Position numbers and translations under genes: made by a program. Source: the human T2T-CHM13v2.0 reference genome, Homo sapiens. From it: DNA of 64,000 nt. Shown piece by piece: positions 61,539 to 64,000 of the stretch; positions within the stretch are counted from its first letter, which is position 1, and each line of letters opens with the position of its first letter. Where the stretch lies: assembly GCF_009914755.1 (NCBI RefSeq), contig NC_060925.1, one strand, 5' to 3'. The notes beneath the pieces were generated by a model. That model made no database searches and was not told the DNA's origin. It saw only the letters and a program-made list of their open reading frames with translations.

Positions 61539-64000
61539 ATTATAAGGTGTTGGGAGAGTCTCAGCTGCAATTCCACGGACGGACAAGGGCACAGAGAGGC
61601 CAGCGGGCTCCCTTGCACGTCAGCCGGGGTGCGCAATGAGCGCAGGTCTAGCCAGGAGGCCAGTAAAGAGAGCTAGAGGTCTGCATTCCACCGCCAGGCG
61701 CTCCATGGTGGCAGCTGGGAAGTTGCAGGTGCACGGGCGGTCCGGCGACGGTGGCGAGGAGGCACAGAGGAGGCGAGCCGCCAGAGGGGTGTCAGGCCTG
61801 CACGCTGTGCGGGCCCTGTGTTTTGCGGGACGGCGGTCTCAACCCAGCCCAGGGGAGGACGCATTTTCCGGGGGTGGGGGGCGGCTGTGGGGAGAGGGTG
61901 GTCAGGCGTTGGTGGGGTGGTGGAAAGGCATGAGAGGTCTGTCCGGGCTGCCCCCACAGACCCGGCAGCTGCCCACAAACCCGCACGTGCACAGTAGGCC
62001 GCCCACCATCTGGTACCTGGCCCGGACCTGGGATCCTTGGAATGCTCAGGAAATAATGGCAGTTCTCCACTGTGTGGAGTCTCTCACCGGGCCTAGACCT
62101 AGAAGGCAGGAATCCCAGGCCAGTCAGCCTGGTGGAGGGGGCGGGGGGAAGACACACCACTCTATAGCCAGCCAGGTGTTCCCCGCGAAAGAGAGGCCAC
62201 AGCCCTGACCCGACCCGACCCAGTCCCAACCCCGCGTCCTAAAGCTCCTCCAGCAGAGCCCAGTATTCTTCCTCGCTGAGGGGTGCTTCCAGTGAGGCGG
62301 CCTCTTCCAAGGCCTCCAGCTCCCCCGGGGCCTCTGTTTCTAGGAAAAGTTGTGCCTGCTGCAGAAACTCCGGGCTCGCCAGGAGCTCATCCAGCAGCAG
62401 GCCGGAGGGGAGTGCAGACAAGTGCCCCGGCTCCTTGAGTGCCTGGGAGGGCGCCGGGATGCCTTGCATCTGCCCCTGCGTGCGGACGCCTCCAGGGGCG
62501 TGGCCTGGCGAGGTGTAACTGTCCTGGCGTTGGGTTCCCACGCCGCCTCGGTGACCTGGGGACCCCGGCCCCAGCCCCACCACGGACTACCCTGGGACGC
62601 GTGTGGCGCAAGCACACCTTGTCCCTGTGGCCCCGCTTGAGCGGGCCCAGGCTGTCCCACCACACAAGGGCCTGGCATGACTTCGCGCTGCGGGTTCCGG
62701 TACTCCCGGATTTTGCCCAGGTGCGGAGGCCACCGAGGAGCCTGAGGATGCGAGAGCACTCCTTCCGGGGTAGCCTGGGCGGCATAGGCAAGATCCCCGC
62801 GTGCTGGGGCAGGTTGGGAGATCCCCTCTGCCAGCGCGGCCTGGCTGGGCTGGAGCACGGGGATGGCCCTCAATCCCTGGCTCACGAAAGCCCCCTGTGG
62901 GAGAGCCCCAGTTGCGCAGGGCACGTGGGGGTGCGGGAAGCCCCTTCCCCATGCAACGGTGTGGGCAAAGGCAACCCACGAGGGAGCAGGGTGACACCCA
63001 ATGGGGGCTGCGTTGCACTGGCCGCCTGACTGTGCGGGCTCCCTGCCAGCCTTTCCCGAGTGCCAGACCCTTCAATTCTGAAACCAGATCTCACTCCTGG
63101 ACTCCGGGAGGCCCGTCTCTCTGGCCAGCTCTTCCCTGGCGGCGATTCCTGGAAAGCCATCCTTCTCAAAGGCTCGGAGGAGCAGGGCGGTCAGTGATCT
63201 GGTGACGGCGGTCCGCTTTCGCCTGCATTCTTGCGGGCCGCGTCTCCCGTGCCAGGGCTGAGATTCCCGCCAGTGCTGCCTCAGCTGGCGTGACCTCTAA
63301 TTCTGAAACCAAATCTGGACCCTGGGCTCCGGAATGCTGATGGCCTGGGACAGGCCTTCGCTGGTGGCGATGCCCGCGTACGGGTTCTGCTCAAAGTAGG
63401 CTCGCAGAGCCTCGCTTTTTCTCAGGGTCCAAACGAGTCTCCTTCGACGTCCCCGTCCCTGGGATTCTGCGGGGAGGGTGCTGTGCGAAGGTGTCGAGAG
63501 GGCCATCGCAGGCAGCCCAAGCTGGAATTTCACTGACGGACAAAAAGAGAGGTCGGCGGGATCCCGTGCACCTCAGCAGGCCTGTGCACTGTGGCAGGTG
63601 CAGCCAGGAGGCCTGCCCGGACAGCCAGCCAGCGGCTCTTATAAAGCCCTGCAGGCAGGCACGCTCCACCCCTTCATGAATGGCGGTGAGCCCTGGGACA
63701 GCCCGCAACACCCCGGAAGTGTCCCAGGGCACCGAGGTCTGCGGCCGGGGGTTGGTGGGGTGGGGGTGAGAGCGTGGTGTTGGTGGTGGTGGGGCGGGAG
63801 AGACGAAGAGGAAGGGAGCGTGGGGGAAGGAGTGAGGGGGGCACGTTTCGGGAGCTGGCTCTCCGGACCTCTCCAGGAATACCGCGGGAACTGGAAGCAG
63901 CTCTCTGGGCTCCCACGTGACTTCAGCAGGGAGAAACCGGCCTGGGAGGGTGGAGGGGAGTGTGGAACTGAACCTCAGTGGGAGTCGTGAGTGTTCCAGG
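61539..64000 (-). repeat. D4Z4-like unit I (continues beyond the window)
   Basis: Exon 3 acceptor at 61647, TATAA at 63639-63643. Upstream D4Z4 sequence runs to the window end. Confidence 0.92.
62239..63506 (-). pseudogene. DUX4L: DUX4-like pseudogene copy I
   Basis: ATG at 63506. GAG>TAG at E70 (63297-63299, WFQN*) and later frameshifts. C-terminus ...[11 protein letters not shown] is intact. Confidence 0.93.

What the first reader, a model, noticed from the sequence alone, without database searches (positions are those of the whole stretch)
61539..61661. Exon 3/pLAM is a diverged, ATG-deleted duplicate of the DUX 5'UTR
Seen: the 3' terminal element (consensus of copies F and I) reads GGCCTCCTGGCTAGACCTGCGCTCATTGCGCACCCCGGCTGACGTGCAAGGGAGCCCGCTGGCCTCTCTGTGCCCTTGTCCGTCCGTGAAATTCCGGCTGAGGCT-CTCCCAACACCTTCCGAC. 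It aligns over about 120 bp with the 5'UTR/start consensus GGCCTCCTGGCTGCACCTGCCGCAGTGCACAGGCCGGCTGAGGTGCACGGGAGCCCGCCAGCCTCTCTCTGCCCGTGTCCGTCCGTGAAATTCCGGCCGGGGCT[CCCCGCGATGGCC]CTCCCGACACCTTCGGAC. The ORF track shows the same match: [18 protein letters not shown] (61346 ORF) versus [18 protein letters not shown] (14356 ORF). The exon 3 acceptor AG corresponds to GC in the 5'UTR, and about 13 nt containing the ATG are missing. Inference: exon 3 is the relic of an older, internally deleted D4Z4 unit, so each gene is flanked by direct repeats. Oligos or guides aimed at exon 3 could cross-react with 5'UTRs.
Basis: partly seen in the sequence, partly recalled or inferred. Interest (0 to 1): 0.75.

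Follow-up and report, generated by a model that had tools for sequence, protein, structure and literature searches.

The report
DUX4 exon 3 is a dead copy of its 5' end
The short element after each DUX4-like gene here, which matches the pLAM exon 3 that makes DUX4 harmful in FSHD muscular dystrophy, is an old decayed copy of the gene's own 5' untranslated region that has lost its start codon.

Summary
Window 61539-61661 (minus strand) is one of 7 copies of a ~120-140 nt element (one of them a 30-nt stub). Each lies about 1.95 kb downstream of a DUX4-like 5'UTR and directly before 68-bp beta satellite.

- **Match to pLAM:** it is 87% identical to the single such element after the last D4Z4 unit on chr4q35 of the same assembly. 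That element is pLAM exon 3, with the ATTAAA signal just downstream.
- **Match to the 5'UTR:** it aligns with the DUX4 5'UTR at 76-82% identity, z = 15-32 against dinucleotide shuffles.
- **Fixed differences:** 30 of 30 sampled 3' copies lack the 13 nt holding the ATG. All 30 have AG where 28 of 29 5'UTRs have GC.
- **Age:** the two classes split with bootstrap 100, so the duplication predates the spread to chr1, the acrocentrics, Y, 4q and 10q.
- **Structure on chr4:** D4Z4 colinearity stops 343 bp after the last KpnI site and resumes about 18 nt upstream of the annotated TSS, skipping 1326 bp.

pLAM is therefore a second D4Z4 unit that lacks an internal segment and is cut off by beta satellite at codon 8. 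Whether that segment was deleted or was a later insertion is unresolved. I found no prior description in five full-text searches, but several key older papers were not readable.

The parts
61539..61677 (-). 3' element (called E3 here): the relic of the DUX4 core-promoter end, 5'UTR and first 8 codons, and the counterpart of the first part of 4qA pLAM exon 3. The AG acceptor equivalent is at 61649-61648. The 13-nt gap that removes the ATG lies near 61556/61557.
   Evidence: Identity is 87% to chr4 pLAM and 76-82% to the window 5'UTR copies.
61678..62017 (-). Partial D4Z4 unit (unit positions 1-343), holding the exon 2 / intron 2 equivalents. It ends at the junction motif GCAGACC.
   Evidence: (window 62017-61678 maps to reference 1-343 at 85%).
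63483..63629 (-). The 5'UTR element (called U5 here) of the same gene copy: about -18 relative to the TSS through codon 8, with the ATG present. It is the upstream member of the direct repeat.
58012..61538 (-). 68-bp beta-satellite array that begins directly after the relic. Its first monomer corresponds to the part of pLAM that carries ATTAAA on chr4.
55251..55373 (-). Another E3 copy. Its paired 5'UTR is at 57189-57321(-).
39685..39808 (+). Another E3 copy. Its paired 5'UTR is at 37735-37866(+).
31194..31316 (+). Another E3 copy. Its paired 5'UTR is at 29262-29374(+).
26760..26880 (-). Another E3 copy. Its gene is truncated at unit position 2716 by an inversion junction, so no paired 5'UTR remains.
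13775..13894 (-). The E3 copy of the one full-length D4Z4-pLAM unit in the window (17454-13535). Its paired 5'UTR is at 15715-15847(-).
48241..48270 (+). An E3 copy cut after about 30 nt, where beta satellite of the opposite orientation begins. Its paired 5'UTR is at 46288-46420(+).

Best explanation
The element is the 1q12 copy of the first ~120-140 nt of DUX4 exon 3 (pLAM). It is an old paralogue of the DUX4 gene's own 5' end.

- **What was shown:** every D4Z4-pLAM cassette carries the start of a second D4Z4 unit after the DUX4 reading frame. The first 343 bp of that unit are colinear with D4Z4 and hold exon 2 and intron 2. The next 1326 bp of a normal unit are absent. That missing stretch includes the promoter.
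- **The relic:** the sequence resumes about 18 nt upstream of the annotated TSS. It runs through the 5'UTR, lacks 13 nt including the ATG, and continues to codon 8. There 68-bp beta satellite takes over.
- **What is inferred:** in this relic a GC became AG, and the stretch just upstream became more pyrimidine-rich. That gave the intron 2 acceptor. The poly(A) signal used on permissive 4qA lies in the first beta-satellite-like monomer (ATTAAA, where the satellite reads ATGTCACAATG).
- **Timing:** the duplication is older than the spread of the cassette to 1q12, the acrocentric short arms, Y, 4q and 10q.
- **Status of the window copies:** they are most likely inert pseudogene cassettes. They have no ATTAAA or AATAAA, and 7 of 8 reading frames are broken. 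The value of the finding is evolutionary: DUX4's disease-relevant terminal exon is built from a dead copy of its own 5' end plus a satellite monomer.
For: - **Paralogy is real.** z = 15-32 against 500 dinucleotide shuffles. The consensus-to-consensus alignment is clean, with a single 13-nt gap.
- **Same element as pLAM exon 3.** chr4 of the same assembly has one 3' element, 1972 bp after the last 5'UTR, with GGCTAG|ACC and ATTAAA downstream. chr10 likewise has one, 97% identical to chr4.
- **Junction.** D4Z4 colinearity at 97.4% runs to chr4:193543421. The 5'UTR paralogy at 82.8% starts at 193543423, which maps to unit positions 343 and 1670. The TSS is given as position 1688 of the KpnI unit in PMC13138017 (passage).
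- **Two fixed classes.** There are 35 diagnostic columns of 153. All 30 E3 and all 29 U5 copies carry their own class states, with at most 3 exceptions each and no chimeric tracts.
- **Tree.** The IQ-TREE split between U5 and E3 has UFBoot 100 and a branch of 0.154. K2P is 0.111 within E3, 0.139 within U5 and 0.303 between them.
- **Direction of copying.** E3 keeps homologues of codons 3-8 but no ATG, so it is the derived copy.
- **Partial unit may be equally old.** In two related full dispersed copies, the unit start and the distal partial unit are 82.7% and 81.8% identical. This suggests, on thin evidence, that the partial unit is as old as the relic there.
- **Poly(A) signal in satellite.** The chr4 pLAM tail aligns at 75-78% to internal beta-satellite monomers.
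Against: - The paralogous stretch is short, about 140 nt. Its first 17 nt upstream of the TSS match at only 11-12 of 17 positions.
- Polarity is not resolved. A 1326-bp deletion in the distal unit and a 1326-bp insertion in the ancestor of all full units each need one event.
- The 20 extra loci were picked from the 40 best-scoring of 486 candidates for the window's own E3. They are therefore biased towards close relatives.
- The claim that the partial unit is equally old rests on two related copies. A third attempt, on chr15, failed because my guessed coordinates were wrong.
- That the GC-to-AG change created the acceptor is inference from alignment, not a splicing test.
- No transcription data were examined for the window copies.
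Confidence: 0.85

Rival explanations
1. The similarity is chance, or a composition effect of two GC-rich sequences.
For: Both elements are GC-rich and short. One within-window pair is only 71% identical over 107 nt.
Against: Scores lie 15-32 standard deviations above dinucleotide shuffles, and no shuffle of 500 reached half the observed score. The same register, the same 13-nt gap and the same diagnostic states recur in 30 of 30 and 29 of 29 copies.
Confidence: 0.01
2. The ancestral tandem unit was only about 1.97 kb, running from the TSS region through the reading frame to unit position 343. On this view the relic marks the true start of the next unit. The 1326-bp segment of modern D4Z4 (positions 344-1669, holding the CpG-rich region and promoter) would then be a later insertion rather than a deletion in pLAM.
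For: The junction is clean to within 1-3 nt. The paralogy begins only about 18 nt upstream of the annotated TSS (PMC13138017 passage). One event suffices, as it does for a deletion.
Against: I saw no target-site duplication at the two edges. The right edge lies in a GCTG/CTGG tetranucleotide run, which is a plausible deletion breakpoint. A gene whose promoter arrived by insertion is less economical. No short unit with an intact ATG was seen among the 59 elements, and every E3 has the 13-nt gap.
Confidence: 0.12
3. The relic is RNA-derived: a piece of the 5' end of a DUX4 transcript was copied in by retroposition or template switching. This would explain why it starts near the TSS.
For: The 5' edge of the paralogy is within about 18 nt of the annotated TSS. 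DUX4 itself is regarded as a retrogene (PMC3004920 passage).
Against: The paralogy extends about 18 nt upstream of the TSS. The skipped segment has no GT...AG ends. The relic sits exactly where the next tandem unit's 5'UTR would lie after loss of an internal block, which a DNA-level event explains without extra steps.
Confidence: 0.03
4. The likeness is kept up by ongoing gene conversion between the 5'UTR and the 3' element of each gene, rather than by one old duplication.
For: The two elements are direct repeats only 1.95 kb apart in hundreds of copies. On chr4 the adjoining partial unit is 97.4% identical to array units, so conversion does act nearby.
Against: There are no chimeric tracts among 59 elements at 35 diagnostic columns. 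The classes are reciprocally monophyletic with UFBoot 100. Within-locus pairs are no closer than between-locus pairs: minimum between-class K2P is 0.198, against a within-class mean of 0.11-0.14.
Confidence: 0.02

Closest known systems
pLAM / DUX4 exon 3 on the 4qA haplotype (chr4q35), the FSHD-permissive 3' end
   Same: It has the same position after a ~0.34-kb partial D4Z4 unit and is 82-90% identical. It has the same AG acceptor context and the same continuation into 68-bp beta satellite.
   Different: The window copies have no ATTAAA or AATAAA. They keep the satellite-like ATGTCACAATG. They sit in 1q12 heterochromatin next to mostly broken reading frames.
Divergent D4Z4-pLAM repeats in LSAU-BSAT composite regions of the acrocentric short arms and pericentric chr1 (Butterfield et al. 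2023, PMC10620044, section 8 read; locus table in PMC12963445, passages)
   Same: The window holds exactly these classes: 5'-truncated units starting at unit position 958, and one full unit, each with pLAM and flanked by beta satellite in both orientations.
   Different: In the passages and section I read, those papers treat pLAM as a flanking sequence linked to D4Z4. They do not state that exon 3 is a paralogue of the 5'UTR.
Distal partial D4Z4 units of 4qAS (~0.3 kb), 4qAM (~0.6 kb) and 4qAL (~1.9 kb) alleles (PMC13138017, passages)
   Same: They show the same idea, that the array ends in an incomplete unit before pLAM. The CHM13 chr4 allele has the ~0.34-kb form.
   Different: That work defines the start of pLAM as the first nucleotide after the partial unit. 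Here the D4Z4 homology is shown to resume immediately, at a different place in the unit.
Exonisation of decayed repeat copies to form new terminal exons (general phenomenon, recalled and not tested here)
   Same: A non-functional duplicate supplies a splice acceptor, and a repeat monomer supplies a poly(A) signal.
   Different: Here the donor of the exon is the gene's own 5' end from the next tandem unit, not a transposable element.

Membership tests
4qA-type pLAM / DUX4 exon 3 cassette | Sequence similarity to the element distal to the last D4Z4 unit on chr4q35 | tested here: met
   Identity is 87.2% over 117 nt, E 4.5e-37. Across the window copies it is 81-87% over 129-136 nt.
4qA-type pLAM / DUX4 exon 3 cassette | Lies directly after a ~0.3-kb partial D4Z4 unit that follows a DUX4-like reading frame | tested here: met
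   Window 62017-61678 maps to unit positions 1-343, and the whole copy 64000-61298 is colinear with the chr4 last unit plus pLAM.
4qA-type pLAM / DUX4 exon 3 cassette | AG acceptor at the start of exon 3 | tested here: met
   AG is present in 30 of 30 3' copies, including all full-length window copies. Splicing itself was not tested.
4qA-type pLAM / DUX4 exon 3 cassette | Followed by 68-bp beta satellite | tested here: met
   TRF finds arrays abutting each copy. The chr4 tail aligns at 86% to window 39815-39949.
4qA-type pLAM / DUX4 exon 3 cassette | ATTAAA polyadenylation signal (the permissive form) | tested here: not met
   Only the chr4 copy, of 30 examined, has ATTAAA or AATAAA within 260 nt.
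D4Z4 unit, TSS / 5'UTR / start-codon segment | Significant alignment to unit positions ~1670-1819 | tested here: met
   z = 15-32. On chr4 it is 82.8% over 93 nt, E 1.3e-21.
D4Z4 unit, TSS / 5'UTR / start-codon segment | Start codon followed by the double-homeobox reading frame | tested here: not met
   The 13-nt gap removes the ATG in 30 of 30 copies. Beta satellite replaces the frame after codon 8.
LSAU-BSAT composite, 5'-truncated D4Z4-pLAM class (Butterfield 2023) | A ~3.1-kb unit lacking about 0.9 kb from the KpnI end, linked to pLAM and interspersed with beta satellite | tested here: met
   5 window copies start at unit position 958, and one runs off the window end. One further copy is full length, from position 32.

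The most novel reading that the evidence does not exclude
The relic may mark the original boundary of the DUX4 tandem unit. On this reading the ancestral repeat was about 1.97 kb, running from the TSS region through the reading frame to position 343. The 1326-bp CpG-rich segment that now carries the DUX4 promoter would have been acquired later. pLAM would then preserve the only surviving trace of the older unit architecture, and the FSHD-permissive terminal exon would be that fossil plus one satellite monomer.
Probability: 0.12. Interest if true: 0.65.

Novelty: new variant of a known kind. Interest (0 to 1): 0.5.

Why it matters
DUX4 causes FSHD only when its transcript ends in pLAM exon 3. 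The field describes pLAM as a unique ~260-bp flanking sequence (passages in PMC4965136 and PMC3488192). It has also noted that DUX4's gain of 3'UTR introns after retrotransposition is unusual (PMC3004920).

This result gives a concrete origin for that 3' end. Exon 2 and intron 2 are the start of the next D4Z4 unit. Exon 3 is that unit's decayed 5'UTR, with a mutated-in acceptor, joined to a beta-satellite monomer that supplies the poly(A) signal.

There are practical consequences:
- DUX4-fl mRNA carries two same-sense copies of ~110 nt at about 80% identity, one in each UTR.
- Probes, antisense oligos and guides for exon 3 should be checked against the 5'UTR of every D4Z4 unit, though the overlap is modest (2-5 mismatches per 20-mer).
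- The relic gives a marker for dating and orienting D4Z4-pLAM evolution in ape telomere-to-telomere genomes.

Tried and rejected
- **Literature:** five full-text searches, and passages or sections of nine papers, gave no statement that exon 3 resembles the 5'UTR. The nine are PMC3488192, PMC12963445, PMC12376486, PMC10620044, PMC13138017, PMC3004920, PMC13606487, PMC4351184 and PMC4965136.
- **Papers not held:** Dixit 2007, Lemmers 2010 (Science and AJHG) and Clapp 2007. Gabriels 1999 and van Geel 2002 carry no PMC id in the reference list I saw, so I did not look them up. Supplements were not consulted. Prior description there cannot be excluded.
- **Phrase search:** my recollection that pLAM was once called a 'divergent 3.3-kb repeat' could not be confirmed; the search found 0 papers.
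- **Rfam:** a gathering-threshold scan of window 55000-64000 gave 0 matches.
- **Constraint on the relic:** segment-wise distances are inconclusive. Among dispersed copies, K2P is 0.101 for the relic, 0.119 for the first satellite monomers and 0.145 for the 5'UTR and reading frame. The partial-unit value of 0.224 is probably inflated by indels and by two inverted copies. I make no claim of constraint.
- **Intron hypothesis:** the skipped 1326 bp has no GT...AG ends.
- **More full-length copies:** A smaller request gave chr22, which was usable, and chr15, where the coordinates were wrong and the result unusable.
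Full report
**What is at the coordinates.** The window is a patchwork of three things. One is a (CCATT)n satellite at 32-6613. The second is a set of long 68-bp beta-satellite arrays. The third is a set of DUX4-like gene copies in both orientations.

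blastn of the element against the window finds two classes of related sequence:
- A 3' class (E3) at 13894-, 26880-, 31194+, 39685+, 48241+ (only 30 nt), 55373- and 61659-.
- A 5'UTR class (U5) at 7776-, 15847-, 18643-, 29262+, 37735+, 46288+, 57321- and 63611-.

Where both are present, E3 lies about 1.95 kb downstream of U5 on the same strand. The 61539 copy hits 8 of 8 U5 copies at 76-82% identity over 56-105 nt, with E from 2e-8 to 2.5e-20.

**More than chance.** I scored local alignments against 500 dinucleotide-preserving shuffles per pair:

| Pair | Observed score | Shuffles (mean ± sd) | z |
|---|---|---|---|
| 61520-61700(-) vs 63470-63650(-) | 87 | 19.1 ± 2.8 | 24 |
| 39650-39830 vs 37700-37900 | 60 | 18.5 ± 2.7 | 15 |
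| chr4 pLAM vs chr4 5'UTR | 109 | 19.1 ± 2.8 | 32 |

They follow from the nucleotide match and add nothing independent.

**It is the counterpart of 4qA pLAM exon 3.** The window's own assembly can be searched. I fetched the last 80 kb of chr4. The 3.3-kb D4Z4 array there ends with a last 5'UTR at chr4:193541470. Exactly one E3 element follows, at 193543439-193543560, which is 1972 bp downstream. It is 87.2% identical to the window element over 117 nt, E 4.5e-37.

The chr4 sequence reads GGCTAG|ACCTGCG at its start and carries ATTAAA about 60 nt after its end. That fits the exon 3 acceptor and the permissive poly(A) signal described in the literature passages I read. The exact exon boundary is my recollection. 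chr10 likewise has one E3 after its last unit, 97% identical to chr4.

**Where the homology starts and stops.** I numbered the chr4 last unit from its KpnI site (193539784 = position 1). The landmarks are as follows:
- The 5'UTR motif GGCCTCC is at position 1687.
- The next KpnI site is at 3296.
- D4Z4 colinearity, at 97.4% identity, runs to 3638. That is 343 bp into the next unit.
- The paralogy with the 5' region, at 82.8% identity, begins at 3640.
- Position 3640 maps to unit position 1670.

The distal unit therefore lacks positions 344-1669, a stretch of 1326 bp, with a junction defined to within 1-3 nt. PMC13138017 gives the DUX4 TSS as position 1688 of the KpnI unit (passage), so the relic starts about 18 nt upstream of the TSS.

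Class consensus sequences align cleanly from there to codon 8. They have a single 13-nt gap in E3 that removes the ATG. Right after codon 8 the sequence becomes beta satellite:
- TRF finds the 68/136-bp period on chr4 from 193543583 to 193550013.
- The chr4 pLAM tail aligns at 86% to window 39815-39949.
- The same tail aligns at 75-78% to internal satellite monomers.
- ATTAAA lies opposite the satellite's ATGTCACAATG.

Exon 3 is thus a 5'-end relic plus the first satellite-like monomer.

**Two fixed, old classes.** I fetched 20 more gene-sized loci on chr1, 13, 14, 15, 21, 22 and Y. They were chosen from the 40 scored hits, out of 486 candidates. They are therefore biased towards relatives of the window copy.
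- 18 of 20 have a U5 element 1.92-1.97 kb upstream of E3.
- The other 2 (chr15 1.06 Mb, chr21 1.08 Mb) instead have a second, inverted E3.

I aligned 59 elements, 29 U5 and 30 E3. Three sets of rows were dropped:
- all but the last two chr4 D4Z4 5'UTRs;
- all but the last chr10 D4Z4 5'UTR;
- hits under 80 nt, namely the 30-nt stub at 48241.

The alignment gave these results:
- **Diagnostic sites:** of 153 core columns, 35 are diagnostic (22 substitutions or 1-nt indels plus the 13 gap columns). Every E3 carries 31-35 E3 states and at most 3 U5 states. Every U5 carries 28-35 U5 states and at most 3 E3 states. No copy shows a chimeric tract.
- **Acceptor:** AG in 30 of 30 E3. The same columns read GC in 28 of 29 U5, with 1 CC.
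- **Start codon:** the ATG columns are a gap in 30 of 30 E3. In U5 they read ATG in 22, TTG in 6 and AT- in 1.
- **Tree:** IQ-TREE (K2P+G4) recovers the U5|E3 split with UFBoot 100 and a branch of 0.154.
- **Distances:** mean K2P is 0.111 within E3, 0.139 within U5 and 0.303 between them.

With a midpoint root, crown depths are about 0.09 in each class and the two stems sum to 0.16. Under a rough clock the duplication is about twice as old as the divergence of the sampled copies, which include 4q and 10q. This is a relative date only. No other primate genome was available. Giussani 2012 reports a chimpanzee 4q pLAM that is 93% identical to the human one (passage).

**Direction.** E3 keeps homologues of codons 3-8 of the DUX4 frame but has no ATG and no frame after codon 8. 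E3 is therefore the derived copy of a gene 5' end, not the reverse.

**One event or two.** On chr4 the 343-bp partial unit is 97.4% identical to array units, while the relic is only about 80% identical to the 5'UTR.

In the one full-length dispersed copy in the window (17454-13535, minus strand), the unit start and the distal partial unit are 254 of 307 identical (82.7%). The alignment ends at the same GCAGACC junction. A chr22 full copy gives 252 of 308 (81.8%), but it is 96% identical to the window copy and so is not independent. A chr15 attempt failed because my guessed coordinates were wrong.

My inference is that the partial unit and the relic arose together as one second unit. On 4q and 10q the colinear 343 bp have since been homogenised with the array. 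Beyond the junction, homogenisation has no colinear partner.

**What I could not settle.**
- A 1326-bp deletion in the distal unit and a 1326-bp insertion in the ancestor of all full units are equally parsimonious here. I favour deletion, for two reasons. The right edge lies in a GCTG/CTGG tetranucleotide run. Among the 59 sampled elements, no short unit has an intact ATG.
- The closeness of the 5' edge to the TSS (about 18 nt) is unexplained. An RNA-mediated origin is unlikely, because the match extends upstream of the TSS and the skipped block has no GT...AG ends.

**Function.** The window copies look inert:
- Only the chr4 copy, of 30 examined, has ATTAAA or AATAAA within 260 nt.
- 7 of 8 window reading frames stop within 18-128 codons.
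- Butterfield 2023 reports uniformly high methylation of these divergent repeats (section 8).
- No Rfam family matches at gathering threshold in 55000-64000.

On chr4, exon 3 and the 5'UTR share 86 of 124 aligned columns. The longest exact run is 12 nt. Windows of 20 nt differ at 2 positions in 3 windows and mostly at 3-5 positions.

**What is known and what seems new.** It is already in print that divergent D4Z4 copies on the acrocentrics and pericentric chr1 carry pLAM. CHM13 holds 13 full and 319 5'-truncated copies, in LSAU-BSAT composite regions (PMC10620044, section 8). PMC12963445 tabulates exon 2, exon 3 and poly(A) by locus (passages). The window reproduces these classes exactly: units starting at position 958, plus one full unit.

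Other papers describe pLAM as follows:
- PMC12376486 says pLAM begins with a truncated D4Z4 unit and ends in 68-bp repeats (passages).
- PMC4965136 and PMC3488192 call pLAM a (unique) 260-bp sequence.
- PMC13138017 defines its start as the first nucleotide after the partial unit.
- PMC3004920 notes that DUX4's gain of 3'UTR introns is unusual.

In five full-text searches and in these passages, I found no statement that exon 3 is a paralogue of the 5'UTR. Dixit 2007, both Lemmers 2010 papers and Clapp 2007 were not held. Gabriels 1999 and van Geel 2002 carry no PMC id in the reference list I saw, and I did not look them up. Supplements were not consulted. Novelty is therefore probable but not established.

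**Verdict.** It is a modest but clean evolutionary insight into a disease-critical exon, found in an ordinary pseudogene cassette.

Noticed in passing
window 14356-15738 (-): The one full-length D4Z4-pLAM copy in the window keeps an open 460-codon DUX4-like frame with both homeobox signatures (WFQNERS..., [13 protein letters not shown]). Its C-terminal end differs and runs longer. The other 7 window copies stop after 18-128 codons.
   Followed up: partly
window 6613-8467 and 32-6613: A 5'-truncated DUX copy (unit positions 958-2869) is cut off inside its reading frame, directly against a 6.6-kb (CCATT)n satellite block. It therefore has no 3' element.
   Followed up: no
window 17460-18855 (-): A rearranged copy holds unit positions 958-1152 joined to 1666-2878, so about 0.5 kb including the promoter region is missing. 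It is then fused to position 32 of the next, full unit.
   Followed up: no
window 48241-48271 and 26519-28573: There are two inversion junctions. One E3 is cut after about 30 nt, where beta satellite of the opposite orientation starts. Two gene copies lie tail-to-head-inverted around a short 0.7-kb satellite block at 27846-28574.
   Followed up: no
L001 vs L002 (chr22:9635679-9635801): The window's 61539 element is 98% identical to a chr22 short-arm copy, and the window's full unit is 96% identical to chr22:9677287-9678210. This points to a recent exchange between 1q12 and 22p.
   Followed up: no
L054 (chr15 ~1.06 Mb) and L047 (chr21 ~1.08 Mb): In 2 of the 20 fetched loci, the place of the 5'UTR is taken by a second E3 in inverted orientation about 1.6 kb upstream. 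The two loci are near-identical to each other.
   Followed up: no
5'UTR copies on chr13, 14, 15, 21 and 22: 6 of 29 sampled 5'UTR copies read TTG instead of ATG at the DUX4 start, and one has a 1-nt deletion there.
   Followed up: no
chr4 vs dispersed copies: chr4 is closer to the dispersed copies in the 5'UTR and reading frame (K2P 0.12 and 0.10) than in the relic and first satellite monomers (0.17 and 0.22). This fits constraint or homogenisation acting on the gene but not on its 3' flank.
   Followed up: partly
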